DNA of 64,000 nucleotides from a virus, in the IMG/VR virus record IMGVR_UViG_3300016471_000517, positions 32,001 to 96,000 of that record. One strand, given 5' to 3'. A program made the position numbers and the translations under genes. Shown piece after piece: positions 1,867-16,056 of this stretch (positions are counted from its first letter, which is position 1; the number at the start of each line of letters is the position of its first letter). The notes under the pieces were generated by a model that was not told the DNA's origin, searched no databases, and was given only the letters and a program-made list of their open reading frames with translations.

Positions 1867-4071
1867 ATGAACACCTCTCTCTCCATCTTCGCCCGCGCTC
1901 TCGCCACCGAAAACCTTTCTTTCTCCTTTGACGCGGAGGCTCCCACGGCATCGTTCGATGTCAAGACCCGCCACCTCGTCATGCCCGTGTGGAATGTCTC
2001 CGACACCCTTCAGACCATGCTCGTGGCTCACGAGATCAGCCATGCCCTGTGGACTCCCTACGAGCGTAGCGAGGAGTTGATGAAGCAGGCGGAGGCTGAT
2101 GGGTTCGTCGCCAAGTTGCTGCACCGCATCTGCAATGTCATCGAAGATGTCCGCATCGAGAAGATGATGAAGGCGAAGTACCCCGGTACTCGTCGGGACT
2201 TCTTCTTGGGCTACAAGGAGGTCGTGGACAGCGACCTGTTCAAGTTCAGCGAGATGGACATTGCGAAGGTCGGACTCATCAACCGCATGAACATTCACTT
2301 CAAGTGGGGCATTCCCGGCTTTCTGAATGTGAATCTTTCTGACGAGGAGCAGGGCATTGCGGACCTGATCGACGCGGTGCAGACCTTTGACGAGGCTTTC
2401 CAGTTGGCGAAGGCTCTCTACAAGCATCCGTCGATGGACGAGATGCGGAAGAAGTACGAGGAGCAGCAGCAGAATGGTTCCGGCAAGGGCGATCCTTCCG
2501 ATGCCAAGCGTGGCAAGGAGCAGACCGAAGGGCTTGGCATGATCGACATGGAGGGTGGGTTCGTTCGCAAGACGGGTGAAACTTTCACCGCGACCACGCT
2601 CACCATTTCTCCGATTCAGAATGTTTCGGATCAGATCATCACGACCGACGATCTTCTTTCGGAGTTTGAGCAGCAGTCTCACCTCCCGCTCACCATCACC
2701 TCCTACCGGGAGTTCGTGAAGGATTCCGATTCCTTCGTTCGCCAGTTGGTTGCCCAGTTTGAGCGTCGCAAGGCGGCTGACGAGATCCGGCGTGAGCGTC
2801 CCAAGCAGACCGGGATGCTCAACCTTGACCGCCTGCACCAGTACCGGACGCATGACGATATCTTCCTGTCGAAGATCATCAAGCAGGACGGCAAGAACCA
2901 CGGGATCTGCTTCTTCCTTGATTGCAGCGGTTCGATGGGGAACACCATTTCGGATTGCTTCCTTCAGATTCTTCAGTTGGTTTGGTTCTGCGAGAAGGCG
3001 AAGATTCCCTTTGAGGTGTTTGGTTTCACCGAAATGGGCATGATGGGCGAGCGTGGCAGGATTGATTCGGAGACTCTCCGCGCAATGATTGCGAAGGGCG
3101 ACAACAGCCCCTACCAGTCGCAATACGCTCCCAAGTTTGTGAATCTTCGTCCGAACAGCCTGATGTACGGTGGGTGCAAGTTGATTCAGTTGGCATCCTC
3201 GTCGGACGATGCGGCCAAGCGTGAACGGCTCCTCGCCTTTCTCTACGAGGCCATTGTCATGAAGGTGCGGAATCGCGTGTTCTCGCTTGGTTCGACTCCG
3301 ACCGTGGAGGCCATGATGATCGGAAGCCAGTTCATGCAGAAGTGGGTGGCCGACAAAAAGATTCAGATTCCGACCGTCATGGTCGTTACGGACGGTCAGC
3401 CCAACGGAGTCTACTTCCAGTCCGAACACATGAGAAGTGGGGGGGATAGCGTTCCCTACACCGCGATTGGTGGGACTTCCCTCACCGTGAACAACGAGAT
3501 TCTTCAGCAGGTCACTCGCGTCGATACGGTGGCCAACCGTGGAATGTCGATGGGCAATGTCGTGGTGTCGGTCATCCTTGAGGATCTTCGCAAGACTCTG
3601 AACGCCCGCACCGTGGGAATGTTCGTGGGTAGCAAGACTTTCAGCGCGAATATGTTCTGCTCGTTCTGCGTCACGACCGACGAATCGGAGAAGATTCATG
3701 AGGAGGAGCAGGAGCAGTATCGCAAGGGCAACTACAACTCTAGTGGTTCCTACGAGTGCAGCCCCCGGTTCATTGCGATCAAGGAAGTCTACAATCGGGA
3801 AGGGTGCATCATTCTGCCGAAGTCTCTGTACCCCGGCTATGACGGCTTCTTCCTCATCAAGACTCCCAAGATCGTCAAGGACGAGGATGCCATCGTGGAC
3901 TCCGGTACTTTCACGCGAGTGAAGAACACCTTTGTCAAGACGATGGGGCAGCGTGGATCTAGCCGTGTGTTCCTCACCCGGTATGTGGACATCGTGGCGG
4001 GTCAGCCTCTCAAGGCCGTGGGCGAGGAGGTCTACCGCCTCTCTGCCAACCCTGCCAAGAAAGATAAGTAA
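1867..4071 (+). CDS. CobT-like vWA protein with N-terminal HExxH domain (MoxR partner)
   Basis: AHEISH, NVIEDVRIE, MIDAS DCSGSM, VVTDG; adjacent to cobS. Confidence 0.85.
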   Translation: MNTSLSIFARALATENLSFSFDAEAPTASFDVKTRHLVMPVWNVSDTLQTMLVAHEISHALWTPYERSEELMKQAEADGFVAKLLHRICNVIEDVRIEKMMKAKYPGTRRDFFLGYKEVVDSDLFKFSEMDIAKVGLINRMNIHFKWGIPGFLNVNLSDEEQGIADLIDAVQTFDEAFQLAKALYKHPSMDEMRKKYEEQQQNGSGKGDPSDAKRGKEQTEGLGMIDMEGGFVRKTGETFTATTLTISPIQNVSDQIITTDDLLSEFEQQSHLPLTITSYREFVKDSDSFVRQLVAQFERRKAADEIRRERPKQTGMLNLDRLHQYRTHDDIFLSKIIKQDGKNHGICFFLDCSGSMGNTISDCFLQILQLVWFCEKAKIPFEVFGFTEMGMMGERGRIDSETLRAMIAKGDNSPYQSQYAPKFVNLRPNSLMYGGCKLIQLASSSDDAAKRERLLAFLYEAIVMKVRNRVFSLGSTPTVEAMMIGSQFMQKWVADKKIQIPTVMVVTDGQPNGVYFQSEHMRSGGDSVPYTAIGGTSLTVNNEILQQVTRVDTVANRGMSMGNVVVSVILEDLRKTLNARTVGMFVGSKTFSANMFCSFCVTTDESEKIHEEEQEQYRKGNYNSSGSYECSPRFIAIKEVYNREGCIILPKSLYPGYDGFFLIKTPKIVKDEDAIVDSGTFTRVKNTFVKTMGQRGSSRVFLTRYVDIVAGQPLKAVGEEVYRLSANPAKKDK

Positions 4072-4092
4072 ATCTTTCCAAACATCTTCATG

Positions 4093-4132
4093 CCCACCCA
4101 GGACTGGAAGGAGAGAGCCAGTTCTGGGTGGG
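4093..4132 (+). terminator. hairpin after vWA gene
   Basis: CCCACCCAGGACTGG ... CCAGTTCTGGGTGGG followed by TTCTT. Confidence 0.55.
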
Positions 4133-4276
4133 TTCTTACTACTATCAAAAAACCTTAAGGTTTTTTGAGTTTTCTTGCATTACTTGCGGACATGGCGGAT
4201 AGTAGTCCCGGACAACCTCTGCCAGGTACGGGATTGTTTCCAGCTTTCCAAATAATTTATTAATTCTCGGACGGAC

Positions 4277-4840
4277 TTATCGGACTCCAGGTGCACGCCT
4301 GGGACCCATTATCGGACTTGTACTTAGTTACTTGACATCCCCCATATCTGGTGTATAGTTATCAGACTGTTCATGCGACCGATAACCCCCTCGTCCCGAC
4401 CTGTGACTGATAATCGTAAGTATTATCGGGCAGGGGGTTATCGGACGTTATGGTGGGTCCTAGTTATCGGACTATGCGTTATCGGTCTCTACTGGGGAGT
4501 TATCAGACTCACCCAGACGGTTTCAAATTTTTCTGAAAAACTTCCCGGACAGGATTCAAAGATTTCTGAAAATATTGAAAACTACTATCCGGGGGTTCTG
4601 GGACTGTATCGAATGTCCCTTATGGGACCTGGACGGGACTGAGATCCCCCCTTGCCTGGACGGGATGTAGCTTTCTGGACAGGATTGACGAGAAATTTAA
4701 TATAATTGCTTGTTTTACCTGTCCTGGCTGGACGGGTTACAAAAAATTGTCAAAAATTTGTAAATTTCTTTGAAAATTTGTCAAATTAATGCTTGACAGG
4801 CTATAAAGCCTTATAAGGCTTTGTTGTTTTGGACGGGCTG
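4277..4840. repeat. iteron-like repeat region, candidate replication origin
   Basis: about 10 TTATCRG(AC) copies at 4277-4508, about 6 GGACRGG copies at 4546-4840, AT-rich tract 4741-4790. Confidence 0.6.
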
Positions 4841-4996
4841 GGACCCTAGGAAGGCTTTCGGACCGTTTATAGAGCATTTAAAGTGGGTTGGAGAGGGTTT
4901 GAGGTGGGGTGTCTAACTCCAATTTTCTCAAATTTTCTTAAATATTCTTTACCCCACTTGCTCCCATTCTCCCCCACCTTTACCCCCCATACATTC

Positions 4997-5386
4997 TTAT
5001 CCGTAGGTAGGTTGTGCTGGAGGAATCGGAGAAGGCTGTGATTGTTGTCTTTCCCACATTCTTTTATGTTTTTCAAGTAAATTTTTATACCATTGGTATA
5101 ATTGTTCTTCAGACCAGTTCAAATGATCAAATGCACCTCTTTTATATTGTTCTATAAACCAATTTTCCAAAAATCTATAATAATCTTCCCATGTGTCATA
5201 CACGACTGGGGGTGGGGTTGGTGTTGACAGCCTTTGCTTAAGTGCAGGTTGTAGGGTTGTTGGTTGATTGGGTTTGTATATTGGTGCTGGTCCACCGCCC
5301 GGTGGGTTTTCCTTCTCACCAACTACCGCTGTTGAAGTAGATGCCTTTGCATCCTCTTCTCTTAAAAATTCCTTAAATTTTTTCAT
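4997..5386 (-). CDS. putative internal head protein
   Basis: N-terminus MKKFKEFLREE resembles T4 capsid targeting sequence. Confidence 0.7.
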   Translation of the reverse strand: MKKFKEFLREEDAKASTSTAVVGEKENPPGGGPAPIYKPNQPTTLQPALKQRLSTPTPPPVVYDTWEDYYRFLENWFIEQYKRGAFDHLNWSEEQLYQWYKNLLEKHKRMWERQQSQPSPIPPAQPTYG

Positions 5387-5390
5387 AGAC

Positions 5391-6164
5391 TTATGCCTCG
5401 TAAGTTCCAGGATTCACTTGTTGACCGGGTGTTGTGGATTGGCCAGGAAAATATCTGTACCACCAAGGAAGATACGGACTAACATTGTCGTCACGTTGAT
5501 ATGGACCGGGAGTTGGTGCGCCGGGTCGTAGAAAGTCAGGATTAAATGGATTTATACCTTCCCATGTGTTTGGGTTTTGTAAATCAAAATTATAACGAGG
5601 ATCATCTGCTCCACCAAAAGGTGTGCCGGGTGTACCGGGAGTTGGTGGGCCGGGATTCACGTAGTCATCAAAGAGGTCATTAAATCTGTCATACAAATCA
5701 CGCATTCTTTGCGTAAAAGTGTTTACTTGTTCGGGAGTGGCATTTGGATATGTTCGCATAAACCATTGTTGTAATTGAAGGTAAAGTGTCATTGTAAAGC
5801 GTGTATAAACATCCATTCCCCCGCCTGCTCCCGTTGTTGTAACTCCAAAAGTTGTCTCTAACCATTGTATGAATGCGTCCCACGATAAAAGTCCCAACAT
5901 ATCTATTTTTTGTTTAAATCTGTCATACAAATCCTCAATTCTATCATCAACTTCCTCCCAGTCGATTGGCTCGGGTGGTTTATGTGGGTTTTCTGGTTTT
6001 TCTTCTGTTTGAGGTTTGTATGGCCAACCACCCGGAAGTGTGGGTGTGGTTCCAAGTGGACTTCCACCCCCATAGAAAACAGGTGCTGACTGTGCTTTTG
6101 AGGAGCCAGCATCACCGGGTGTAGCGGTCATCTCTTCTCTTAAAAATTCTTTGAAACTTTTCAA
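5391..6164 (-). CDS. putative internal head protein (TTG start)
   Basis: (M)KSFKEFLREE; TTG overlaps upstream TGA; Pro/Gly-rich. Confidence 0.7.
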   Translation of the reverse strand: MKSFKEFLREEMTATPGDAGSSKAQSAPVFYGGGSPLGTTPTLPGGWPYKPQTEEKPENPHKPPEPIDWEEVDDRIEDLYDRFKQKIDMLGLLSWDAFIQWLETTFGVTTTGAGGGMDVYTRFTMTLYLQLQQWFMRTYPNATPEQVNTFTQRMRDLYDRFNDLFDDYVNPGPPTPGTPGTPFGGADDPRYNFDLQNPNTWEGINPFNPDFLRPGAPTPGPYQRDDNVSPYLPWWYRYFPGQSTTPGQQVNPGTYEA

Positions 6165-6634
6165 TTTACTCTCTCCCACGTTACATTTCCAAATTGGTCT
6201 TGTTGAACTTGCCAAACCTGACCATTATCATCTATGTAAATATCACCAACCTGTGCGGGTGGTTGAGCAAAAATTGTAACTACTCCATCTGAACCTCTAA
6301 CTCTTTTACCCGGAATTCTTGCAGGATATGTGTAGACATTTCCAAATGGAAAATTGAGTTGTTGGTATGTATCCCATATTTTTTTCAATTCAAGATATTT
6401 CTTGTATCTTTGGGCATATTGCTCTTCACTCTCTCCGGGTTGTCTTTTTGGTGGTTCGCCCGGATCTGTTGGCGCACCATATCCTGGTTGGGCTGTTGGT
6501 TTTCTGTATGCGGGTTTTTGTGAAGGAGGTGCAGAATAAACCATGGCCGAACCCATTGTTTTTTCTTGTGTTCCTTTGTCAGTTCCTTTAGAAACTTCAA
6601 TTTCTTCTTTGAGATAATCTTTAAAACTTTTCAT
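6161..6634 (-). CDS. putative internal head protein
   Basis: MKSFKDYLKEE; CTAAATA late promoter just upstream. Confidence 0.7.
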   Translation of the reverse strand: MKSFKDYLKEEIEVSKGTDKGTQEKTMGSAMVYSAPPSQKPAYRKPTAQPGYGAPTDPGEPPKRQPGESEEQYAQRYKKYLELKKIWDTYQQLNFPFGNVYTYPARIPGKRVRGSDGVVTIFAQPPAQVGDIYIDDNGQVWQVQQDQFGNVTWERVN

Positions 6635-6680
6635 ATAGGTATTTAGTTGACTTTTGTCCTTTGGGGTGTATACTATGTCC

Positions 6681-7052
6681 ATGAAACCCGACATTGAGCG
6701 TCTACGGCGTGAGGTTCGCTATCTGCGTAATTGCATCGCAGAGGCGTTCAATGCCCTCCCCACTCTTCCCGGCACGTCGTTGGATAACTGGTGGGTGTTC
6801 AGTCCAATCTGCCGTGCCATTCGTCCCTACAAGGAAATCTATGACGAAGAGTTTGAACCCAAGGCTGTTGTCCGAAAGCGTAAAAAAGTTTCTCAATATT
6901 TGACCGCAGAGATTCTTCCCGGCGAACAGACTGGAGAAAGAAAGCGTCTGCGAGTGGATGAACTTCCACCTCTGCCTGAAGAAACCCCTAGAGTGGGTAA
7001 GCAGGCCACGAAGGTGATGAATAGTTTGGGTATTGGGATTCATATTGATTGA
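6681..7052 (+). CDS. hypothetical early protein
   Basis: ATG 7 nt after TTGACT-16-TATACT promoter (6647-6674). Confidence 0.7.
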   Translation: MKPDIERLRREVRYLRNCIAEAFNALPTLPGTSLDNWWVFSPICRAIRPYKEIYDEEFEPKAVVRKRKKVSQYLTAEILPGEQTGERKRLRVDELPPLPEETPRVGKQATKVMNSLGIGIHID

Positions 7053-7077
7053 CAACCAACCCAAGAGAGTGTATACT
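7049..7077 (+). promoter_or_regulatory. sigma70-type promoter driving the HEAT-repeat operon
   Basis: TTGACA-17bp-TATACT; ATG at 7084. Confidence 0.8.
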
Positions 7078-7083
7078 ATGAAC

Positions 7084-7314
7084 ATGAACAGCGACGACAT
7101 TCATGAACTGAAGGCAGAGATCGCCCGTCTGAACGCAAAGATTGAAGTCATGCGGGGGGTTCTGTGGGAGTGGAACTGCTCCTCCGGTCCTGTGTGGGAG
7201 TATTACAGACTCAAGCAGGTGGGAGAGAAACAAGAAGATTACGCCTTCCTAGACGAAGATTACGAAGTAGATATGCCCCTCTTTGACGATGTTACTAACT
7301 CCTTTGGAGAATAA
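7084..7314 (+). CDS. hypothetical early protein
   Basis: ORF MNSDDIHELK directly after promoter. Confidence 0.7.
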   Translation: MNSDDIHELKAEIARLNAKIEVMRGVLWEWNCSSGPVWEYYRLKQVGEKQEDYAFLDEDYEVDMPLFDDVTNSFGE

Positions 7315-7315
7315 C

Positions 7316-8002
7316 ATGACTACCAAGACTCCTGAAGAACTCCTGAAAGACCTAGACAGCAATGATGTTAATGTCCGCACGGATGCTGCCAGTAATCCAA
7401 GTGCCACTCCTGAAGTCCTCCTGAAGGCTCTGGAGGACGAGCATAAATATGTCCGCTGTGCTGCTGCCGGGAATCCTAATGCCACTCCTGAAATTCTGCG
7501 GAAGGCTCTGGAGGACAAGAATGAATATGTCCGCTCTTGTGCTGCCGAAAATCCCAATGCTACTCCCGAAATGCTGCTGAAGGCTTTGGAGGACAAAGAT
7601 GTCCGCTATGCTGCTACCCAAAATCTCAATGCCACTCCTGAAGTCCTCCTGAAGGCTCTGGAAGACGAGGATTACCATATCCGCTATTATGCTGCCGAAA
7701 ATCCCAATGCTACTCACGAAGTCTTGTTGAAGGCTCTGGAGGACTGGGATTACCGTGTCAGCCTTGCTGCTGCGGGGCATCCCAATGCCACTCCTGAAGT
7801 CCTGCTGAAGGCTCTGAAGGACACGGATTACCGTGTCCGCAAATATGCTGCCGGGAATCCCAATGCTACTCCTGAAATCTTGTTGAAGGCTCTCAGTGAC
7901 AAGGATGAGTTGGTACGCAAATCTGCTCAAGAGAGTTTACAAAAGGATCCCATTCTTCAAATCCAAGTTGCTGCTCTTAGGGCACAATCAACCGAAACGT
8001 AA
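7316..8002 (+). CDS. HEAT/LRV-repeat protein, 7 repeats
   Basis: 26-aa repeats VRxxAAxNPNATPEVLLKALED; GGAGA RBS. Confidence 0.9.
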   Translation: MTTKTPEELLKDLDSNDVNVRTDAASNPSATPEVLLKALEDEHKYVRCAAAGNPNATPEILRKALEDKNEYVRSCAAENPNATPEMLLKALEDKDVRYAATQNLNATPEVLLKALEDEDYHIRYYAAENPNATHEVLLKALEDWDYRVSLAAAGHPNATPEVLLKALKDTDYRVRKYAAGNPNATPEILLKALSDKDELVRKSAQESLQKDPILQIQVAALRAQSTET

Positions 8003-8021
8003 GAAAATTAAGGAAAACAAA

Positions 8022-8402
8022 ATGACTACCAAGACTCCTGAACAACTCCTGAAAGACCTAGACAGTAAGGATGTTAAGATCCGCCGTACTGCTGCGGGGC
8101 ATCCCAATGCCACCCCTGAAGTCCTGCTGAAGACTATGAGGGACGAGCATCACTTTGTCCGCCGTGGTGCTGCCCTGAATCCTAATGCTACTCCTGAAGT
8201 CCTGCTGAAGGCAATGAGGGACAAGAATTACATTGTACGCTGGGGTGCTGCCGTGAATCCCAATGCTACTCCACAAATGCTGATGAAGGCTTTGAAAGAC
8301 AAGTATAGGGTTGTCCGCAGCGCTGCTCAAGAAAGGTTGCAAAATGATCCCATTCTTCAACTCCAAGTCGCTGCTCTCAGGGCACAATCAACCGCCTCTT
8401 AA
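8022..8402 (+). CDS. HEAT/LRV-repeat protein, 3 repeats
   Basis: same repeat, N-cap and C-cap; AAGGA RBS. Confidence 0.9.
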   Translation: MTTKTPEQLLKDLDSKDVKIRRTAAGHPNATPEVLLKTMRDEHHFVRRGAALNPNATPEVLLKAMRDKNYIVRWGAAVNPNATPQMLMKALKDKYRVVRSAAQERLQNDPILQLQVAALRAQSTAS

Positions 8403-8421
8403 CAAAATTCGGGCAAACAAC

Positions 8422-8958
8422 ATGGATACCAAGACTCCAGAACAACTCCTGAAAGACCTAGACAGCAATGATCGCGTTGTCCGCTATTGTGCTGCTGCGA
8501 ATCCTAATGCCACTCCCGAAGTCCTGCTGAAGGCTCTGGAGGATGAAGAGGTGGATGTCCGCTGGGAGGCTGCCGGGAATCCTAATGCCACTCCCGAAAT
8601 TTTGCTTAAGGCAATTGGAGACAAGAATTCGGATGTCCGCTATGCTGCTGCCGGGAATCCCAATGCCACTCCCGAAATTTTGCTTAAGGCAATTGGAGAC
8701 AAGAATTCGGATGTCCGCTATAATGCTGCGGAGAATCCCAACGCCACTTCTGAAGTCCTGCTGAAGGCAATTGGAGACAGGTTTGTTAAGATCCGTGAGG
8801 CTGCTGCGTATCATCCCAATGCCACTCCTGAAGTCTTGTTGAAGGCAATTGGAGACAAGAATTCGGATGTTCGCAGCGCTGCTCAAGAGAGTTTACAAAA
8901 CGATCCCATTCTTCAACTCCAAGTTGCTGCTCTCAAGGCTCAAAAAAACGCCTCTTAA
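8422..8958 (+). CDS. HEAT/LRV-repeat protein, 5 repeats
   Basis: same repeat and caps. Confidence 0.9.
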   Translation: MDTKTPEQLLKDLDSNDRVVRYCAAANPNATPEVLLKALEDEEVDVRWEAAGNPNATPEILLKAIGDKNSDVRYAAAGNPNATPEILLKAIGDKNSDVRYNAAENPNATSEVLLKAIGDRFVKIREAAAYHPNATPEVLLKAIGDKNSDVRSAAQESLQNDPILQLQVAALKAQKNAS

Positions 8959-8976
8959 GAAAATTAAGGAAACAAA

Positions 8977-9270
8977 ATGGCTACTAAGAAGACCGCAAAG
9001 AACGCTTCAATCACTCTGCACCCCTTGCTCCAAAAGAGAATGGAGTTTTACCAAGAAATGTTTACTTGGTGTATTGAAAACTGGGATAAGTTGCGCAAGT
9101 ATGAAGTAGGCTCCGAAGTTCTCTTTTCCTGTTTCCCTTGGAAATTGCAGCGCGAGTTAGGGGAAACTTATCATATCCGTGGGCGTTTCGATGATGAATG
9201 GCACAAACTGAGGGGGAAGAAAGCAATTACGTTTAAAGATCTTTGTCATCTTTTTTACCTTTGTAAATAA
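8977..9270 (+). CDS. hypothetical protein inserted in the HEAT array
   Basis: shares AAGGAAACAAAATGGCTACTAAG start cassette with HEAT genes but unrelated body. Confidence 0.75.
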   Translation: MATKKTAKNASITLHPLLQKRMEFYQEMFTWCIENWDKLRKYEVGSEVLFSCFPWKLQRELGETYHIRGRFDDEWHKLRGKKAITFKDLCHLFYLCK

Positions 9271-9891
9271 AATCTTGAATCCAAGAAACTCCGAATCAAG
9301 ATTTCTGTTGAGAAAGTAAAGTAAACCACAATGCCCGACCTGAGTTGAGACCTAAAAGGAAACAAAATGGCTACCAAGACTACCAATAAACTCCTGAAAG
9401 ACCTTGACAACAAGGATGTTGACATCCGCTATGCTGCTGCGTATCATTCCAATGCTACGCCCGAAGTCCTGCTGAAGGCTATGGAAGACAAGAATTCGGG
9501 TGTCCGCCGTGGTGCTGCACTTAATCCTAATGCTACGCCAGAAGTCCTCCTGAAGGCTTTGGAAGACGAGGATGTTGATGTCCGCTATGCTGCTGCCAAT
9601 AATCCAAGTGCTACTCCCGAAGTCCTCCTGAAGGCTCTTGAAGACGAGGAGTGGTGTGTCCGCAGTTATGCTGCCGGGAATCCCAATGCCACTCCCGAAG
9701 TTCTCGCGAAGGCAATCATGGACCGGTGGAATGATGTTCGTGATGCTGCTGAAGCAAATCTTGAATCCAAGAAACTCCGAATCAAGATTTCTGTTGAGAA
9801 AGTAAAGTAAACCACAATGCCCGACCTGAGTTGAGACCTGAAAGGAAACAAAATGGCTACTAAGATTACCAACAAACTCCTGAAAGACTTA
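9270..9891 (+). repeat. direct repeat of about 130 bp (9270-9405 and 9756-9891)
   Basis: AAATCTTGAATCCAAGAAACTCCG...AAAGGAAACAAAATGGCTAC nearly identical, offset 486. Confidence 0.9.
9367..9810 (+). CDS. HEAT/LRV-repeat protein, 4 repeats, alternative C-cap
   Basis: same repeat; ends NLESKKLRIKISVEKVK. Confidence 0.9.
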   Translation: MATKTTNKLLKDLDNKDVDIRYAAAYHSNATPEVLLKAMEDKNSGVRRGAALNPNATPEVLLKALEDEDVDVRYAAANNPSATPEVLLKALEDEEWCVRSYAAGNPNATPEVLAKAIMDRWNDVRDAAEANLESKKLRIKISVEKVK

Positions 9892-10467
9892 GACAGCGAT
9901 AATCTCGATGTCCGCCTTACTGCTGCCAGTAATCCCAATGCCACTCCTGAAGTCCTCCTGAAGGCTATGGAAGACAGTAATAGGAATGTCCGCTATGCTG
10001 CTGCCAGTAATCCCAATGCCACTCCTGAAGTCTTGATGAAGGCTTTGGAAGATGAGGAAGTTTGGGTTCGTCGTGATGCTGCATACCATCCCAATGCTAC
10101 TCCAGAAGTCCTGACCAAGGCGATGGAAAACAAGGATGAGTATGTTCGTCGGGATGCGGCAGCGAATCCCAATGCCACTCCTGAAGTACTCCTGAAGGCT
10201 ATGGAGGACAAGGATTCGGATGTCCGTGAGGGTGCTGCGGAGAATCCCAACGCCACTTCTGAAGTCCTGCTGAAGGCAATTGGAGACAGGTTTGTTAAGA
10301 TCCGTGAGGCTGCTGCCGGGAATCCCAATGCCACTCCTGAAGTCTTGTTGAAGGCAATTGGAGACAAGAATTCGGATGTTCGCAGCGCTGCTCAAGAGAG
10401 TTTACAAAACGATCCCATTCTTCAACTCCAAGTTGCTGCTCTCAAAGCACAGAAAGTCGCCTCTTAA
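9853..10467 (+). CDS. HEAT/LRV-repeat protein, 6 repeats
   Basis: same repeat and caps. Confidence 0.9.
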   Translation: MATKITNKLLKDLDSDNLDVRLTAASNPNATPEVLLKAMEDSNRNVRYAAASNPNATPEVLMKALEDEEVWVRRDAAYHPNATPEVLTKAMENKDEYVRRDAAANPNATPEVLLKAMEDKDSDVREGAAENPNATSEVLLKAIGDRFVKIREAAAGNPNATPEVLLKAIGDKNSDVRSAAQESLQNDPILQLQVAALKAQKVAS

Positions 10468-10486
10468 AAAATTCGGGAAAACAACA

Positions 10487-10768
10487 ATGATTACCAAGAT
10501 TAAGAACAATACCAAGAAACCGACGAAATATCATTACTTTTTCAATTACAACAGAGGAAACTATTTTCAGATTTCCCATGGATTGGAAAAGCGTTATGGC
10601 AAAATGTTTTATGGTTCGGGAATTCACTTGACAGGGAAGGCGTTTGATATACACTTCTACTGCACTCCGAAGGAGTACAAGCGCATCGTGGCTTGCGCTC
10701 GTCGTCGCTACGGCAAAATCAAGAGCATCACTCGTTATACCGAAGAAGCCCTTTACGGAGATGACTGA
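10487..10768 (+). CDS. hypothetical protein
   Basis: MITKIK start in same leader context as HEAT genes. Confidence 0.7.
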   Translation: MITKIKNNTKKPTKYHYFFNYNRGNYFQISHGLEKRYGKMFYGSGIHLTGKAFDIHFYCTPKEYKRIVACARRRYGKIKSITRYTEEALYGDD

Positions 10769-10882
10769 TATGGCTACCAAGAACAAGACCAAGATCGAAA
10801 AAACTCCCCTCACCCTCCGATGTTCTGCGGGATATCTGTGAGGCGTATGAGACTATTCAACGACTGACTAAAAGGAGATACC

Positions 10883-11272
10883 ATGAATAAAAAAATTGCA
10901 ACACGTTGGGTTAAGGCTTTGCGTTCGGGTAAGTACAAGCAGGGAACAGACTATCTGTGTAAGACGGAAGATGGGCACACCAAACATTGCTGCTTGGGGG
11001 TTTTGACGGATATGTATCAGCAAGAATGCAAACGCAATAAGAAGAAGGCATTGTCTGTTAAAATTATTAGTGGGTCTCATCCTAGTTACACTGTGTTTAC
11101 CTACAATAAAGAAGATAAAGTTCTTCCTGTTGCGGTAAAAAAATGGGCTGGAATGAAAAATAGAAGTGGCCGTATTGAAACAGAAAACGAATGTCTTGCC
11201 TTCATGAACGATGAGGGGGATTCTTTTAAGAAAATTGCAAACTTTATAGAGAAGAACTATGACAAACTTTGA
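10883..11272 (+). CDS. conserved phage hypothetical protein
   Basis: WVKALRSGKYKQG...CCLGVL...MNDEGDSFKKIA; AAGGAG RBS. Confidence 0.8.
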   Translation: MNKKIATRWVKALRSGKYKQGTDYLCKTEDGHTKHCCLGVLTDMYQQECKRNKKKALSVKIISGSHPSYTVFTYNKEDKVLPVAVKKWAGMKNRSGRIETENECLAFMNDEGDSFKKIANFIEKNYDKL

Positions 11273-11525
11273 ACACATAGACTACCGCTTACGCTGCCAT
11301 AGCAAGCGCACCGATCTTCCCCCTGATGTTCTGCGGGATATCTGTGAGGCGTATGAGGCTATTGAACGACTGACAAAAGAGCGCGACGAGGCAAGACGAG
11401 AAGTTTCCCAATCGCAAGCGCAGTACAACTCCTTCATGTTTGACAATTCTTGTTTCCACGATCCTCATGCCATTGCTGAGTCAAGGGGATGGGATTGCTT
11501 CAAGGAGAATGCCGATGCCCGATAG
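11259..11525 (+). CDS. hypothetical protein (ERDEARRE...RGWDCFKE motif)
   Basis: ORF overlapping neighbours; motif shared with next gene. Confidence 0.7.
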   Translation: MTNFEHIDYRLRCHSKRTDLPPDVLRDICEAYEAIERLTKERDEARREVSQSQAQYNSFMFDNSCFHDPHAIAESRGWDCFKENADAR

Positions 11526-11772
11526 AGATTCAAATGGTGTGGATATCCTTGATCGCTTCTTGGCATTCAAGTATCGGTTCATGCAGTTTAGTGTGACCGA
11601 GGATGTCTTTAATCAGGTGGTTGAATATATCAAGGAACTCCGCAAGGAACGCGACGAGGCGAGGCGGGAGGTGTGCAGGAACGAGGCCAACCATCTACCA
11701 ACTATGGCTGATCCGCACAGAGAAGCAAGGCGGCGTGGATGGGATTGCTTCAAGGAGGGCGGCAATGTGTGA
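11515..11772 (+). CDS. hypothetical protein (ERDEARRE...RGWDCFKE motif)
   Basis: AAGGAG RBS; C-terminal paralog of previous gene. Confidence 0.7.
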   Translation: MPDRDSNGVDILDRFLAFKYRFMQFSVTEDVFNQVVEYIKELRKERDEARREVCRNEANHLPTMADPHREARRRGWDCFKEGGNV

Positions 11773-12046
11773 TAAACACGGAATGTCTGAAGAGCGTTGG
11801 AACTACCTCATGCAGCCCTTTGATGACAATTGGGATGTCATGCTCACGGCAGAGGAACTGAAAAATGGATGGCATTGGTGTGATGAATGGGACGGGCTTC
11901 TAATTCATGTGGATGAACGTGAGTTTGAGCATTGCAAATGTGATTTTATGAAAAAGTTTCGGACTCCTGAGAGACTTCAGAGAATGAAGCAGGAACAGGC
12001 GATGGATAAACTCGCAGACCTTGATGAAGAACTTGGATTGCACTAA
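11765..12046 (+). CDS. hypothetical protein
   Basis: GGAGG RBS; GWHWCDEWDGL..C.C motif. Confidence 0.7.
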   Translation: MCDKHGMSEERWNYLMQPFDDNWDVMLTAEELKNGWHWCDEWDGLLIHVDEREFEHCKCDFMKKFRTPERLQRMKQEQAMDKLADLDEELGLH

Positions 12047-12058
12047 TAAATATTCTAA

Positions 12059-12817
12059 ATGCACTACACAACAGTCTTTCTGTCAGACTTTCACCTTGCC
12101 TCCAAAAAAGCAAAGTACAAGCCTCTCATAGACTTCTTGAAGTCCAATACCTTTGATAACATCTACTTGGTAGGTGACATCATAGACATTTGGAGATTCA
12201 AGGACGCATTCTCCATGAAACATGAGAAGCAGATTGGACAGGTTGAAGTCGTGGAAAGACTGTTGAAACTTTCTCGTAAAGGAACCAAGATTCATTACAT
12301 CTATGGAAACCATGACGAGTTCATGGCAAAGTTCATAGGGCATGAAATATTTGGAAATATTTCTCTGTACGAGAGAATGGATTACACCACCAAGAACGGA
12401 AAGAAGTTTCTCGTTCTTCACGGACATCAGTTTGATTTGCTAACCAAGTATCCAATCAGTTCTTCTCTTTACAAACTTGGAGACATTGGATACGAAATTA
12501 TGCTTGATCTAAATGAAATTTTCAATTGGTGTCGTAGAGCATTAGGAATGCGATACTGGTCTTTGTCCAAGTATGTAAAGATTAAAGTAAAGAGGGCAGC
12601 ACAGTTCATTGAAAGTTTTGAAGATGTTATATGCAGATACGCCAAGGACAAGAAGTATGATGGTGTAATCTGCGGTCATCTTCACAATCCAAAAATTGCG
12701 GAAGTGCATGGGACGGTATACGCAAACTGCGGATGCTGGACTGAAAAAGATAACTGCACTTTTCTCTATGAGGATAACAAAGGAGAACTGAAAATTGGAA
12801 CCTACGCAATCGAATAA
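12059..12817 (+). CDS. calcineurin-like metallophosphoesterase, LpxH-like
   Basis: SDFH, GDIID, GNHD, HGHQFD, CGHLH motifs. Confidence 0.85.
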   Translation: MHYTTVFLSDFHLASKKAKYKPLIDFLKSNTFDNIYLVGDIIDIWRFKDAFSMKHEKQIGQVEVVERLLKLSRKGTKIHYIYGNHDEFMAKFIGHEIFGNISLYERMDYTTKNGKKFLVLHGHQFDLLTKYPISSSLYKLGDIGYEIMLDLNEIFNWCRRALGMRYWSLSKYVKIKVKRAAQFIESFEDVICRYAKDKKYDGVICGHLHNPKIAEVHGTVYANCGCWTEKDNCTFLYEDNKGELKIGTYAIE

Positions 12818-12989
12818 TCATCTTTATGACGATTATAGACCTACAAAATGGCATGATCCATTTGTTCTATATGGTTGCTTGATACTACTAATTCCTGTGG
12901 TATTATATGGAATTATGTGTGGAATAATTCGGGATACAATAAAACCACCAAAGTCAACAAAAACTTGTATGAACTCTGGTAAGCAATAA
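12795..12989 (+). CDS. small membrane protein (start uncertain)
   Basis: single hydrophobic segment. Confidence 0.4.
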   Translation: MEPTQSNNHLYDDYRPTKWHDPFVLYGCLILLIPVVLYGIMCGIIRDTIKPPKSTKTCMNSGKQ

Positions 12990-13105
12990 ATGGATAAAAA
13001 AATTCCAATATTCTGGTTTTTCTTTTTTACTTTCATGCCAGTCTTTATGATGGCACTAAGCGAAATCATTATTTGGATAGATGAAGTAATAATAAATAAA
13101 CTAGA

Positions 13106-13179
13106 TAGGCATTAACTCAGCTTGGTAGAGTGCTTGCTTTGGGAGCAAGATGTCGTTGGTTCAAATCCAGCATGCCTAA
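13106..13179 (+). tRNA. tRNA-Pro(UGG)
   Basis: acceptor TAGGCAT/ATGCCTA, anticodon arm CTTGC-TTTGGGA-GCAAG, T loop TTCAAAT. Confidence 0.9.
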
Positions 13180-13181
13180 TT

Positions 13182-13508
13182 ATGTGTGACTCAAAAAATT
13201 ATTATAGAAAACTAGCAAGACAAGCCGTAAAAAAACAATACGATGAGTACATGAAAGACAAAAAGTGTGCTCATTGTGGTAATGATGATATAAGAGTTTT
13301 GCAATGGCATCATTTGGATCCATCACAAAAAGATGCAAATGTTCCCAATCTTGTCTCAAGATACAAGTGGAAAAGAGTACTTGCTGAAATAAGTAAGTGC
13401 ATATGCCTTTGTGCAAATTGTCATTGTATAGAACACCATGTAAACAGAGACAAGTATAAGTACAAACTTAAAAATTTATTCTTGCCTCTTCCTTTTCTTG
13501 ATACATAA
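13182..13508 (+). CDS. HNH endonuclease-like protein
   Basis: CAHCG...WHHLDP...CICLCANCH..EH. Confidence 0.8.
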   Translation: MCDSKNYYRKLARQAVKKQYDEYMKDKKCAHCGNDDIRVLQWHHLDPSQKDANVPNLVSRYKWKRVLAEISKCICLCANCHCIEHHVNRDKYKYKLKNLFLPLPFLDT

Positions 13509-13515
13509 TACACCT

Positions 13516-13680
13516 ATGAAAACTATTCTAAACAAACTTACCGTACCTTTTCTTGTCTTTCTTGGCTTTAACATGATTGGTTTTTGTTATCACAAAAACT
13601 ATGAAGGAGCAGTTGCTGGCAGTCTTGTTGGAATGCTTGTTGCAATTCTTGTACTAGAAGTCAAAGTTAAATTGGATTAA
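13516..13680 (+). CDS. small two-TM membrane protein
   Basis: two hydrophobic segments; ATG 7 nt after TTGCCT-16-CATAAT. Confidence 0.65.
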   Translation: MKTILNKLTVPFLVFLGFNMIGFCYHKNYEGAVAGSLVGMLVAILVLEVKVKLD

Positions 13681-13692
13681 TGGATAGTAGTC

Positions 13693-13766
13693 GGCCCTTT
13701 CGTCTAGTCGGTCTAGGACACGGCCCTTTCAAGGCCATAACATGGGTTCGAATCCCGTAAGGGTCA
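13693..13766 (+). tRNA. tRNA-Glu(UUC)
   Basis: cloverleaf, loop CTTTCAA, GGTTCGAATCC. Confidence 0.9.
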
Positions 13767-13768
13767 TT

Positions 13769-13996
13769 ATGACATTGCCACACGAAGAATACAATAGTCT
13801 TACAAATACAAGAGAATTTTTATACGATCTTTTGGATGCACATAAGACACCAAACGTGCCAAAGGCAATCAGAGATCGTGCAAGAGATGTGTTGAAGCAT
13901 TATCCGTTTGACACAACTCTAAAGCAATTTTATAAAGAAAGCATGCATCATCCTGATCGTGGAATTCACGGATGGGGAAAAGGAAAAGACGAATGA
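13769..13996 (+). CDS. conserved hypothetical protein (BPSL0761-like)
   Basis: MTLPxE...TREFL...PKAIR.RA...LKHYP pattern. Confidence 0.65.
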   Translation: MTLPHEEYNSLTNTREFLYDLLDAHKTPNVPKAIRDRARDVLKHYPFDTTLKQFYKESMHHPDRGIHGWGKGKDE

Positions 13997-14439
13997 ACAA
14001 TTCAATTGATAATCACCCAGATCAACTGGATAAACTAATTTCAAATTATCCAATTGTATTCAAGCACCTTGATAAAACTATATCTCATAATCTTCCTGCC
14101 GGTTGGTATAAGATTGTGGATAAACTGTGCTCAGAACTTACTCCAATTCTTCTTGAGGCTCTTGAAGAAAGTCCAGAGACTCCTGAAGAACCTCTATTCA
14201 GCGTTCTACAGGTCAAGGAGAAGTTTGGTGGTCTTCGATTTTATTACATGATGAATACGAAGGACGACGAACTTTATAAAAAGATTCAATCACTTGTTGA
14301 CGACGCTGAAGATGCTTCATATGTAACTTGTCAAGTAACTGGAAAGTTGGGTGCTTTGTCTAAAAGTGGTTCTCATTACATGACTTTGTGTGAAGATTCT
14401 CGCAATTCCATGAACTACAAGATTATTGGCAATGGATAA
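13993..14439 (+). CDS. conserved phage hypothetical protein
   Basis: GW..I...QVKEKFGGLRFY...C..G motif. Confidence 0.8.
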   Translation: MNNSIDNHPDQLDKLISNYPIVFKHLDKTISHNLPAGWYKIVDKLCSELTPILLEALEESPETPEEPLFSVLQVKEKFGGLRFYYMMNTKDDELYKKIQSLVDDAEDASYVTCQVTGKLGALSKSGSHYMTLCEDSRNSMNYKIIGNG

Positions 14440-14986
14440 CAGAAACCTCATCGACCATTATAAATATTGGACTGATGATGCCATTAGAGCTGATCTTGAC
14501 GTTAAGCGCAATAACTTTTCTGTTGTCTGCTGCAACATTGGCAACGACTTTAATATTGCTACCGTTATACGGAATGCTAATGCGTTTCTGGCGAGAGAGG
14601 TTGTAATCTATGGTAACAAGAAATACGACCGACGAGGGACTGTTGGTACGCATCATTACACCAACTTCCGCCATGTCAAAAGCATTGAAAATCTCAGCAC
14701 CTATGTTGAAGAAGTTGTTTCCGAGTTTGAAGGAAAAGTTAAACTATTGGGAATTGACAATGTTTCTCAAGCACAAGATGTAAATGCATACGAATTCGAC
14801 CCAAGTATTCATTATGTGATGATTTTTGGACAGGAACAAATCGGTGTTCCCGAAAACGTTCTAAGTATGTGTGATGATCTTCTTTACATTCCTCAGTATG
14901 GTTCTGTGAGAAGCATCAATGTTGGTACGGCATCGGGAATTATTATGAACAATTACTGTGCTAAGGTTCACTCCCTTGTGAGGTAA
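14426..14986 (+). CDS. TrmH/SpoU (SPOUT) RNA 2'-O-methyltransferase
   Basis: NIATVIRNANAF, IFGQEQIG, IPQYGSVRSINVGTA motifs. Confidence 0.85.
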   Translation: MAMDNRNLIDHYKYWTDDAIRADLDVKRNNFSVVCCNIGNDFNIATVIRNANAFLAREVVIYGNKKYDRRGTVGTHHYTNFRHVKSIENLSTYVEEVVSEFEGKVKLLGIDNVSQAQDVNAYEFDPSIHYVMIFGQEQIGVPENVLSMCDDLLYIPQYGSVRSINVGTASGIIMNNYCAKVHSLVR

Positions 14987-15042
14987 AGGTAGCCTATTAG
15001 ACTTTGATTCTAAGTGTAAACGTTCGAATCGTTTCAAGGGAA
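14972..15042 (+). tRNA. tRNA-Gln(UUG)
   Basis: acceptor TCCCTTG/CAAGGGA, TTAGA-CTTTGAT-TCTAA, TTCGAAT. Confidence 0.85.
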
Positions 15043-15091
15043 TTTAGTAGTATTTCTCACCGTCAAAACTTTATGTTACCTAAATATATAC

Positions 15092-15793: not shown

Positions 15794-16056
15794 AAGATAA
15801 ACAAATGAAACCAGTAGGAAAATGGATACTCGCAAAGTCTTTGATTGGTGGTCAGAAGACTACCGAAGCAGGAATCATTTATAATGAGAGATCTTCTTCG
15901 AAGATAATTCCTGCAAAAGTAGAAGCTATCGGAAATAAACTAACAGAAGACATTCAGGTTGGTGATACGATCTGGTGGGATGTCAGCAAAATTAAAGATG
16001 GCTATGCTGGCTCACACGTAGTTCACCAAGACTGGGTTGAGTTTGTAGAGCGATAA
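15790..16056 (+). CDS. GroES-like co-chaperonin
   Basis: MKPVGKWIL...TTEAGII...VEAIG...IQVGD. Confidence 0.7.
   Translation: MKDKQMKPVGKWILAKSLIGGQKTTEAGIIYNERSSSKIIPAKVEAIGNKLTEDIQVGDTIWWDVSKIKDGYAGSHVVHQDWVEFVER

What the first reader, a model, noticed from the sequence alone, without database searches (positions are those of the whole stretch)
7316..10467. Natural library of capped HEAT-repeat binders with hypervariable positions
Seen: five early genes built as N-cap (MxTKxxxxLLKDLD), then 7, 3, 5, 4 or 6 modules of 26 aa, then C-cap (AQESLQNDPILQLQVAAL in four). The scaffold NPNATPEVLLKAxxD is nearly fixed. The four residues before VR, the two after it (TD, CA, SC, YA, YY, KY, RT, RG, WG, YC, WE, YN, EA, SY, LT, RD, EG) and the one after AA vary strongly. 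Established: engineered alphaRep/DARPin binders use the same logic. Inference: a recombination-diversified set of binders expressed early, for example against host defence proteins.
Basis: partly seen in the sequence, partly recalled or inferred. Interest (0 to 1): 0.85.

Follow-up and report, generated by a model that had tools for sequence, protein, structure and literature searches.

The report
Phage array of variable-surface repeat proteins
An uncultured T4-like freshwater phage carries five neighbouring genes for small helical-repeat proteins with a fixed framework and one fast-changing, tyrosine- and tryptophan-rich surface stripe, so they look like a natural panel of binding proteins, but what they bind is unknown.

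Summary
Five co-oriented genes (7316-10467) encode capped solenoids built from a 26-residue LRV/HEAT-like module (Pfam PF01816 and PF02985, above cut-off in 5 of 5).

- **Fold:** AlphaFold2 gives a two-helix-per-module solenoid (pLDDT 97.3). The closest solved structures are artificial alphaRep binders, then 1LRV.
- **Variable sites:** module positions 18, 19, 22, 23 and 26 align with alphaRep's randomised positions. They hold 14.5-16.7% Tyr+Trp, against 4.5-7.2% expected.
- **Selection:** dN/dS is about 1.1-1.5 at variable codons and 0.37-0.44 at scaffold codons. That is at least neutral; positive selection is not proven.
- **Turnover:** three related phages carry 1, 2 and 5 genes at this locus. 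Conversion tracts link g3 to g5, and a large phage without shared gene order here carries 89-92% identical genes.

No part of the function was tested: not binding, not targets, not early timing, not anti-defence. The same fixed-scaffold/variable-stripe pattern occurs in other LRV arrays. Small LRV proteins are common in uncultured tailed phages. This scan has already noted similar arrays in other T4-like lake phages.

Verdict: a new variant of a known kind, of moderate interest.

The parts
7049..7077 (+). Sigma-70-like promoter consensus (TTGACA, 17-nt spacer, TATACT; 11 of 12 matches). It lies just upstream of the small ORF 7084-7314 and the five repeat genes.
   Evidence: This is a consensus match only: the scan found 38 sites in 4000-16500 against 25.7 +/- 5.2 in shuffles. 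The T4-type late motif TATAAATA is absent from 1-14458.
7316..8002 (+). g1: a 228-aa capped LRV/HEAT-like solenoid made of an N-cap module, 6 internal modules (one of 24 aa) and a C-cap module plus helix. pI 4.9.
   Evidence: Pfam HEAT 72.4 bits and LRV 54.9 bits. pI.
8022..8402 (+). g2: a 126-aa paralog with 3 NPNAT modules. It is the only basic one (pI 10.3).
   Evidence: (HEAT 32.4 bits, LRV 31.8 bits).
8422..8958 (+). g3: a 178-aa paralog with 5 modules. Modules 2 and 3 are near-duplicates (8566-8653 matches 8644-8731 at 93%). It is 90% nt identical to L006:9987-10543.
8977..9270 (+). An unrelated 97-aa ORF with no family match, lying inside the array. It is followed at 9264-9366 by an orphan copy of g4's 3' end plus spacer.
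   Evidence: 0 Pfam families; 9264-9386 matches 9750-9872 at 95% over 123 nt.
9367..9810 (+). g4: a 147-aa paralog with 4 modules. Its C-terminus (…ANLESKKLRIKISVEKVK) differs from the shared cap.
   Evidence: HEAT 50.1 bits, LRV 44.1 bits.
9853..10467 (+). g5: a 204-aa paralog with 6 modules. This is the protein that was folded. Its 3' part, 10229-10455, is about 95% identical to g3's 8720-8946.
   Evidence: (pLDDT 97.3, pTM 0.89).
10487..10768 (+). A 93-aa basic small ORF (…KYHYFFNY…, pI 9.8) with no family match. Homologues lie beside LRV genes in L015 and twice in L006, and are absent from L030. It may belong to the same cassette.

Best explanation
The five genes form a tandem paralog family of a mainly viral or metagenomic subfamily of LRV (PF01816)/HEAT-like repeat proteins. 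Each product is a minimal soluble alpha-solenoid. It has an N-cap module, 2-6 internal 26-residue modules (helix A = positions 6-13, helix B = positions 18-26), and a last module extended by a capping helix.

The framework residues (NPNATPEVLLKA..D….VR..AA.) are held by purifying selection. The loop before helix B (positions 16-17) and one stripe of helix B (18, 19, 22, 23, 26) change at neutral or higher rates. These sites are enriched in Tyr and Trp, which is the make-up of a protein-recognition surface.

The most likely function is inferred, not shown. The phage makes these proteins in the host cytoplasm, probably early and with host RNA polymerase, as stoichiometric binders. Each would use its variable groove to bind and block or redirect a different host (or rival-element) protein. 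Defence proteins are one plausible class of target.

The panel diversifies in four ways:
- point change at the stripe;
- module duplication and gene conversion;
- gain and loss of whole genes;
- exchange of the cassette between phage lineages.
For: Family and fold:
- Pfam HEAT and LRV score above the curated cut-offs in 5 of 5 proteins.
- The AlphaFold2 model of g5 has pLDDT 97.3 and pTM 0.89, with two helices per module and a terminal capping helix.
- In the Foldseek PDB search, ranks 1-11 are alphaRep binders or complexes (TM 0.48-0.68, 26-33% identity) and 1LRV is rank 12.
- In phmmer against PDB, 17 of 19 matched sequences are alphaRep-type.

Binding-face register:
- The residue alignment puts E7, L9, K11-A12-L13, D15, V20-R21 and A24-A25 in the same register as alphaRep.
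- alphaRep's randomised positions 18, 19, 22, 23, 26 (and 30) lie on the concave faces, and those variable surfaces form the interfaces in the crystal complexes. Position 23 favours small side chains there (PMC3754942, passages read). Here position 23 is A, G or S in 35 of 53 modules.

Selection and composition:
- Within the window, pN/pS is 1.5 at variable columns and 0.29 at scaffold columns.
- Between g3 and L006:9989-10522, dN/dS is 2.1 at variable codons (Nd 14.5, Sd 1.5) and 0.31 at scaffold codons.
- Across 223 unique modules, independent close pairs give omega 1.43, 1.11 and 1.49 at variable codons and 0.44, 0.37 and 0.38 at scaffold codons, for 27, 41 and 69 pairs.
- Tyr+Trp make up 25 of 150 residues (window) and 47 of 325 (four phage groups) at the helix-B sites. 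The codon expectation is 4.5-7.2%. The scaffold holds 0-0.2% Tyr+Trp.
- The paralogs differ in charge, with pI from 4.9 to 10.3.

Turnover:
- The window contains near-identical tracts: 8720-8946 with 10229-10455, 9264-9386 with 9750-9872, and 8566-8653 with 8644-8731.
- At the same locus, with flanks 80-91% identical for L015 and neighbouring genes in the same order for L030, L030 holds 1 gene (9 modules), L015 holds 2 (3+3) and the window holds 5 (25 modules).
- The large phage behind L006-L010 shows no shared gene order here, yet carries genes 89-92% identical to those of L015 and the window.
- Tandem LRV genes occur in 13 of the 74 metagenome loci fetched.

Timing:
- A sigma-70-like site lies at 7049-7077.
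- None of the 12 TATAAATA motifs in the window lies in 1-14458.
Against: - No binding partner, expression data or phenotype exists.
- No run on record as RNA holds the stretch, so timing rests on consensus motifs only.
- Omega at the variable sites is statistically above 1 at only one of three thresholds (bootstrap intervals 0.68-3.82, 0.70-1.95 and 1.09-2.12). Relaxed constraint alone could give omega near 1. The counts use a simple Nei-Gojobori method on short, recombining modules, and the pairs need not be orthologous.
- The fixed-scaffold/variable-stripe pattern is generic. All 7 other LRV proteins that could be parsed (of 10 tried) show higher entropy at the same positions. alphaRep's variable positions were themselves taken from natural variability. 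The resemblance to a designed library is therefore partly built in.
- Between g3 and its L006 counterpart, 4 of 6 modules are unchanged at the variable sites. The surface is not hypervariable on short timescales.
- Contigs from 3 runs in 2 studies match the array at 99% or more.
- The Tyr/Trp p-values treat related modules as independent.
- The host is unknown.
Confidence: 0.55

Rival explanations
1. These are generic scaffold proteins with unconstrained surfaces. The paralogs would share one non-specific role, for example a chaperone or spacer, or multivalent low-affinity binding through the conserved framework. The variable sites would then be solvent-exposed positions that drift, and gene number would vary by neutral tandem duplication in a hyperplastic region.
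For: - Omega at the variable sites is close to 1, and the interval includes 1 at 2 of 3 thresholds.
- The same positions vary in unrelated LRV arrays.
- The surrounding region is full of insertions and deletions relative to L015. The phosphoesterase, the HNH endonuclease and a 744-aa ORF are present or absent.
Against: - Drift should take composition toward the codon expectation. Instead Tyr+Trp are 2-3.6 times enriched at the exposed sites and absent from the scaffold.
- The ORFs are intact and the scaffold has omega 0.3-0.4 in every lineage examined.
- Position 23 keeps small residues, as in functional binders.
- The paralogs have very different charge.
Confidence: 0.2
2. These are virion-associated adaptor or receptor-recognition proteins. 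The repeat proteins would attach to tail fibres or spikes, or be packaged, and the variable face would recognise host surface structures.
For: In another lineage (L016, L020, L027, L053), 3-5 tandem LRV genes with a different conserved C-terminal domain sit directly upstream of, and co-oriented with, one or two roughly 800-aa genes. Those genes look like tailspikes of the pectate-lyase type from their sequence (my reading; no family search was run on them). They share the same upstream element and the MPD start.
Against: - In the window the genes lie among small ORFs of unknown function, about 48 kb from the tail-fibre genes at 58754-62541.
- They have no anchoring domain beyond the caps and no signal sequence.
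- They follow a sigma-70-like site rather than a late motif.
Confidence: 0.1
3. These are decoys of host LRV-type immune sensors. The phage proteins would mimic the repeat sensor domain of host NTPase-LRV proteins and soak up the phage component that would trigger them. This is a special case of the binder model in which the target is a phage protein.
For: The best-scoring representative hit (P0079, E 5.5e-137, 41% identity) joins a long N-terminal region containing a GGGKT Walker-A-like motif to twelve or more 26-residue NPNATEAVLL modules. There is also a weak PADLOC match to HEAT-ARM_XIII (28 bits) for 2 of the 3 repeat proteins scanned.
Against: - Pfam finds no NTPase family in P0079 at E <= 1e-5.
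- The repeat type occurs in 10,200 representative proteins of many architectures, so this hit is not specific.
- The host is unknown, and no host sensor has been identified.
Confidence: 0.07
4. These are phycobilisome-directed HEAT-like proteins of a cyanophage, of the CpcE/F or NblB type.
For: The DNA polymerase's best matches are Synechococcus myophages (41-42% identity), and cobS/cobT-like genes are present.
Against: - HEAT_PBS (PF03130) is not among the Pfam hits at E <= 0.1 for any of the 5 proteins.
- No psbA/psbD was found in the 117-kb record, although that record is only 58% complete.
- A polymerase identity of 42% does not assign a host.
Confidence: 0.03

Closest known systems
Leucine-rich repeat variant (LRV) family, Pfam PF01816; solved member Azotobacter vinelandii LRV protein (PDB 1LRV)
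   Same: The Pfam model is 26 positions long and scores above cut-off in all five proteins. The solenoid is helical. Foldseek matches 1LRV at E 7e-6 with TM 0.65/0.58.
   Different: By sequence 1LRV is not found at E <= 1e-3. As I recall, 1LRV carries an N-terminal Fe-S domain; nothing of that kind is present here. These proteins are free-standing, capped, phage-encoded and in tandem paralog arrays.
alphaRep artificial binders (consensus HEAT-like repeats; PDB 3LTJ, 4JW2, 4XL5, 6GWC, 7Z0G)
   Same: They are the closest solved structures and sequences. Both have an N-cap, n modules and a C-cap. The register of conserved residues is the same, and the variable positions 18, 19, 22, 23 and 26 are the same. 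Small residues are favoured at position 23 in both.
   Different: The alphaRep module has 31 residues; here it has 26, because helix B and the turn are five residues shorter. Positions 16 and 17 also vary here, and position 30 does not exist. alphaReps are man-made and selected in vitro, and their design copied natural variability, so part of the likeness is by construction.
Fungal NLR repeats with high internal conservation (Podospora het-d/het-e WD40, ANK and TPR repeats)
   Same: A natural repeat array that is taken to diversify recognition. Hypervariable positions under selection and repeat shuffling are recalled for these NLRs. The abstract start seen in the listing (PMC11761791) names only NLR alleles with high internal conservation.
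   Different: Those are sensor domains of large immune receptors, with very high nucleotide identity between repeats. Here modules are 72-80% alike apart from three recent tracts. There is no effector or NTPase domain, and the owner is a virus.
Multigene repeat-protein families of large eukaryotic viruses (poxvirus and giant-virus ankyrin-repeat proteins), and gene 'accordions'
   Same: Virus-encoded families of small solenoid proteins, amplified in tandem and varying in copy number between strains. Ankyrin-repeat proteins of giant viruses appear as weak structural neighbours in BFVD. The functional parallel is recalled, not tested.
   Different: The repeat fold is different (ankyrin against LRV), the hosts are eukaryotic, and those proteins are often fused to F-box or PRANC domains. 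Nothing comparable has been described for phages in the searches I ran.

Membership tests
LRV (Pfam PF01816) | Profile match above the curated gathering score | tested here: met
   Scores of 54.9, 31.8, 49.4, 44.1 and 67.2 bits against a cut-off of 21.6, in 5 of 5 proteins.
LRV (Pfam PF01816) | Short (24-26 residue) module forming two helices, stacked into a right-handed solenoid like 1LRV | tested here: met
   The register is 26 aa. DSSP on the AF2 model gives two helices per module. Foldseek matches 1LRV with TM 0.65/0.58. Whether the second helix is 3-10, as I recall for 1LRV, cannot be told from the output.
HEAT repeat (Pfam PF02985) | Profile match above the curated gathering score | tested here: met
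   Scores of 72.4, 32.4, 67.7, 50.1 and 62.9 bits against a cut-off of 23.5.
HEAT repeat (canonical) | Repeat unit of roughly 37-47 residues (recalled definition) | tested here: not met
   The unit is 26 residues, so this is HEAT-like, not canonical HEAT.
PBS-lyase HEAT-like repeats (PF03130; natural source family of alphaRep; CpcE/F, NblB) | Profile match to HEAT_PBS; unit of about 31 residues | tested here: not met
   PF03130 is absent from the hit lists at E <= 0.1 for all 5 proteins. The unit is 5 residues shorter than alphaRep's.
Diversity-generating retroelement targets | A reverse transcriptase and a template repeat near the variable gene | tested here: not met
   There is no RVT_1 match in the 117-kb record. 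That record is only 58% complete, so absence from the whole genome is not shown.
High-internal-conservation repeats (fungal NLR type) | Repeats nearly identical at the DNA level within a gene | tested here: not met
   Period-78 arrays show 72-80% matches. Only three tracts reach 93-96%.
Known anti-defence or defence proteins | Match to a described family | tested here: inconclusive
   In PADLOC, only a weak match to HEAT-ARM_XIII (28 bits) in 2 of the 3 repeat proteins scanned. No library of anti-defence proteins was available. The best PHROGs match is 9.4e-06 to a family of unknown function; all strong matches are unannotated, and weak 'tail tube protein' matches (E about 0.01-0.02) occur for g3 and g5.

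The most novel reading that the evidence does not exclude
Tailed phages of lakes carry a natural, evolvable repertoire of minimal solenoid 'antibody-like' binders. These are capped LRV modules whose Tyr/Trp-rich groove is under diversifying selection. The modules and whole genes are shuffled, amplified and traded between phage lineages without shared gene order here, to keep pace with variable host immune proteins. This would be a viral counterpart of the repeat-based recognition systems of hosts (NLR, VLR and STAND sensors), and a ready-made scaffold for binder engineering.
Probability: 0.3. Interest if true: 0.8.

Novelty: new variant of a known kind. Interest (0 to 1): 0.55.

Why it matters
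Small LRV proteins form many mostly viral clusters in the ESM Atlas (59-252 members each). They also appear in BFVD only as 'Leucine rich repeat variant [uncultured Caudovirales phage]'. Yet only 1 of 50,697 isolate phage records matches, and my literature searches found no study of them.

If the panels are target-specific binders, three things would follow:
- They would be a large untapped class of phage host-takeover or counter-defence proteins.
- Their targets would point to host factors that matter in lake phage-host conflicts.
- The 26-residue capped module would be a compact natural alternative to alphaRep and DARPin scaffolds.

The three-way locus comparison (1, 2 and 5 genes) also gives a clean case of gene-number and repeat-number change in a phage hyperplastic region.

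Tried and rejected
Searches that found nothing useful:
- DNA searches of the isolate-phage collection with the region and with 20 kb of the window gave no match.
- PHROGs gave its strongest matches to families of unknown function; weak 'tail tube protein' matches (E about 0.01-0.02) also appeared for g3 and g5. Pfam on the ten neighbouring ORFs gave nothing except the phosphoesterase.
- The DNA polymerase search on the records behind L010 and L006 found nothing. Both records are partial, so I claim no more than that those phages share no gene order with the window in this region.

Ideas considered and dropped:
- DNA-mimic idea: dropped, because the paralogs range from pI 4.9 to 10.3.
- DGR idea: dropped, because there is no reverse transcriptase in the record.
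I saw no L-x-E cleavage-type motif in the N-cap by eye. This was not tested further.
- Foreign origin by composition: GC3 of the repeat genes is 0.46-0.50. That lies between the core genes (0.33-0.45) and the cobS/T-like genes (0.77), so it is not diagnostic.

Sequencing runs:
- No RNA holder is listed.
- Only assembled contigs were available, and they break at the repeats. They cannot show rare repeat-number variants.
- The X5 joint 8723>10233 falls in 84 shared letters, so it is ambiguous.
- The X3 joint 9494>9680 with 29 replaced letters, and the many X6 joints at 90-95% likeness, most likely come from co-occurring relatives with other module orders. They are a weak hint only.

Steps not taken or failed:
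- No coordinates of the model were available to my scripts. 'One face' therefore rests on DSSP, on helical periodicity, and on the residue alignment to alphaRep, not on a measured surface.
- Searches printed nothing, because BLAST merged the repeats into long alignments. One search replaced them.
- Supplements of papers were not consulted.

Full report
**What is there**

The window is bases 32001-96000 of a 117,060-base uncultured virus record, which CheckV rates 58% complete. The phage is T4-like. It has a family-B DNA polymerase whose best matches are Synechococcus myophages at only 41-42% identity. It also has a UvsX-like recombinase, a primase, a DnaB-like helicase, ribonucleotide reductase and collagen-like tail-fibre genes, cobS- and cobT-like genes, and six tRNA genes. 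The runs that hold the stretch are labelled freshwater metagenomes. The host is unknown. No psbA/psbD was found in the partial record.

Between 7316 and 10467 lie five co-oriented ORFs, g1-g5, of 228, 126, 178, 147 and 204 aa. All five begin with MxTKxxxxLLKDLD. They contain 7, 3, 5, 4 and 6 modules that start N/H-x-N/S-A-T. Four end with a shared cap. The cap is exact in g3 and g5, has one substitution in g2 and two in g1. g4 ends differently.
- One module has 24 residues rather than 26.
- An unrelated 97-aa ORF (8977-9270) interrupts the array.

Tandem Repeats Finder reports period-78 arrays with 72-80% matches in every gene. The phage record holds exactly these five copies.

**Family and fold**

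Pfam places all five proteins in HEAT (PF02985) and LRV (PF01816) above the curated cut-offs. HEAT_PBS is not among the hits.

An AlphaFold2 model of g5, built on a 19-sequence alignment, has mean pLDDT 97.3 and pTM 0.89. It shows two helices per module (positions 6-13 and 18-26), and the last module extends into a long capping helix.

Against the PDB, Foldseek ranks 1-11 are artificial alphaRep binders or their complexes (TM 0.48-0.68, 26-33% identity). 1LRV is rank 12. By sequence, 17 of the 19 PDB matches are alphaRep-type proteins, and 1LRV is not found.

The residue alignment shows that the phage module equals the 31-residue alphaRep module minus five residues at the end of helix B. The register is otherwise the same: E7, L9, K11-A12-L13, D15, V20-R21 and A24-A25.

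In the alphaRep paper (PMC3754942, passages read):
- the randomised positions are 18, 19, 22, 23, 26 and 30;
- the concave faces hold the residues that were allowed to vary, and the variable surfaces form the interfaces in the crystal complexes;
- position 23 favours small side chains.

Here the high-entropy columns are 16-19, 22, 23 and 26. Position 23 is A, G or S in 35 of 53 non-N-cap modules. Positions 19, 22, 23 and 26 are spaced i, i+3, i+4 and i+7, so they form one stripe of helix B. V20, R21, A24 and A25 form the opposite, packed stripe. I had no model coordinates, so 'one face' is inferred from these three lines of evidence, not measured.

**Is the variability more than generic?**

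The pattern itself is generic. I tried ten other LRV-type proteins from the representatives search. Seven could be parsed into five or more modules, and all seven show higher mean entropy at the same five positions than elsewhere. The repeat type occurs in 10,200 representative proteins at E <= 1e-3.

Three things stand out in the phage family:

1. **Entropy.** It reaches 3.0-3.3 bits at positions 18, 19, 22 and 26.

2. **Composition.** Tyr+Trp make up 25 of 150 helix-B stripe residues in the window, and 47 of 325 across four phage groups. The expectation from base composition is 4.5-7.2%. The scaffold holds 0-0.2% Tyr+Trp. The p-values (7e-5 to 2e-12) overstate significance, because the modules are related to each other.

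3. **Rates.**
   - Within the window, pN/pS is 1.5 at the seven variable columns and 0.29 at the scaffold, but the distances are near saturation.
   - Between g3 and its 90%-identical counterpart in L006, dN/dS is 2.1 (Nd 14.5, Sd 1.5) at variable codons and 0.31 at the scaffold. The changes are confined to modules 1 and 2, and four of six modules are unchanged at the variable sites.
   - I then used 223 unique modules from the window, the viral loci and the metagenome loci. Non-overlapping closest pairs give omega 1.43, 1.11 and 1.49 at variable codons for 27, 41 and 69 pairs. The bootstrap intervals are 0.68-3.82, 0.70-1.95 and 1.09-2.12. Scaffold omega is 0.44, 0.37 and 0.38.
   - An earlier pairing by scaffold similarity gave omega 1.07 and 0.28. 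That pairing biases scaffold dS downward.

Positive selection is suggested but not established.

**Turnover**

Inside the window there are three near-identical tracts:
- 8720-8946 matches 10229-10455, about 227 nt at 93-96%. This links g3 modules 4-5 plus cap to g5 modules 5-6 plus cap.
- 9264-9386 matches 9750-9872, 123 nt at 95%. The 3' end of g4, the spacer and the next gene's start therefore occur twice, once directly after the foreign ORF 8977-9270.
- 8566-8653 matches 8644-8731, 88 nt at 93%. This links g3 module 2 to module 3.

Two relatives of the same phage lineage cover the locus:
- L015 has flanks 80-91% identical to the window and in the same order. It has two repeat genes of 3+3 modules where the window has five.
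- L030 has the same upstream and downstream genes and a single gene of nine modules.

The phage behind L006-L010 comes from a 224-kb contig rated 55% complete. It shows no nucleotide-level gene order in common with the window here. It nevertheless carries three capped genes that are 89-92% identical to those of L015 and the window, three more degenerate LRV genes, and two small-ORF families also found next to the window's array. The cassette therefore appears to move between phage lineages.

Further lineages also carry tandem sets:
- L025 has genes of 11 and 4 modules.
- L016, L020 and L027 have 3 genes, and L053 has 5. These have other terminal domains and lie next to genes that look like tailspikes.
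- Of the 74 metagenome loci fetched, my regular-expression criteria found at least one LRV gene in 49, and two or more in tandem in 13 (8 with two, 4 with three, 1 with five). Some of these loci are copies of the same phage.

Within the window's own population, contigs of three runs from two studies agree with the array at 99% or more. Contigs cannot show rare variants.

No reverse transcriptase is present in the record.

**Distribution**

- The close subfamily is known only from metagenomes. The word-indexed search scored 8000 candidates and found 78 proteins at E <= 1e-3. The best has 57% identity, and none is named beyond 'HEAT repeat protein'.
- The motif search over one genome for each of 185,579 species gave one weak relative, at 28% identity.
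- 1 of 50,697 isolate phage records matches.
- The nearest ESM Atlas clusters are mostly viral.
- The top four BFVD structures are 'Leucine rich repeat variant [uncultured Caudovirales phage]'.
- This scan has earlier follow-up notes on similar LRV gene families in other T4-like lake phages. I treat these as leads, not evidence.
- Literature searches for LRV, PF01816 or HEAT repeats together with phage terms returned nothing on such arrays.

**How it most likely works**

Shown:
- the fold class;
- the capped architecture;
- purifying selection on the framework;
- neutral-or-faster change and aromatic enrichment on the stripe that corresponds to the alphaRep paratope;
- recombinational turnover.

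Inferred:
- The proteins are cytoplasmic, since no signal sequence is seen.
- They are made early from the sigma-70-like site at 7049-7077. None of the window's 12 T4-type late motifs lies in 1-14458.
- Each binds a different protein through its groove. The range of pI from 4.9 to 10.3 fits different targets.

Whether the targets are host defence proteins is open. Rivals are relaxed constraint without specific targets, a virion-associated role, decoys of host LRV sensors, and phycobilisome-directed HEAT-like proteins. They are scored in their own section.

**Verdict**

This is a new variant of a known kind: LRV/HEAT-like solenoids, here as a phage-borne, recombining paralog panel. Interest is moderate, because function and targets remain untested and the variable-stripe design is a general property of the repeat family.

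Noticed in passing
window 10487-10768; L015 5988-6257; L006 7012-7302 and 9718-9987: A family of basic proteins of about 90 aa (…KYHYF…FYCT…YKRIV…) with no Pfam match lies next to LRV genes in three phage groups. It is absent from L030. It may be part of the same mobile cassette or a partner of the repeat proteins.
   Followed up: partly
window 11259-11525 and 11440-11772; L006 8423-8800; L015 6642-6914: Small ORFs sharing the motif …ERDEARREV…GWDCFK occur twice in the window, partly overlapping in different frames. They also occur beside the LRV genes of the other phages. Function unknown.
   Followed up: no
window 10770-10841 vs L015 6250-6447 and L030: The window holds only a 23-codon remnant (MATKNKTKIEKTPLTL…) of a 65-aa gene that is intact in L015 and L030. 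This indicates a truncation at the edge of the array.
   Followed up: partly
window 12059-12817, 15092-15793, 16057-18291: The metallophosphoesterase gene, the HNH endonuclease gene and a 744-aa ORF are present in the window but missing from the otherwise collinear relative L015 (80-91% identical flanks). The whole region is hyperplastic.
   Followed up: partly
L016 5115-12558; L053 1674-5853: Another phage lineage has 3-5 tandem LRV genes with a conserved N-terminal GWYR.AK…GHK motif and a roughly 90-aa C-terminal domain. They lie directly upstream of one or two roughly 800-aa genes that look like tailspikes. All of these genes share the same upstream element and the MPD start.
   Followed up: partly
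protein P0079 (1123 aa, from the representatives search): The best-scoring relative joins a long N-terminal region containing a GGGKT Walker-A-like motif to twelve or more 26-residue NPNATEAVLL modules. It may be a STAND-type sensor. Pfam names no NTPase family at E <= 1e-5.
   Followed up: partly
window 1-4071: The cobS-like (146-1402) and cobT-like (1867-4071) genes have GC3 of 0.77-0.78, against 0.18-0.45 in the core and structural genes of the same phage. This is a strong compositional island.
   Followed up: no
window, whole: The T4-type late promoter motif TATAAATA occurs 12 times, against 3.6 +/- 2.2 expected. All copies lie between 14459 and 54944.
   Followed up: partly
window 19851-20226 (- strand): ARAGORN calls a permuted tmRNA-like gene with tag peptide ANIKAAPMRMAA among the phage tRNA genes. 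This was not checked against Rfam.
   Followed up: no
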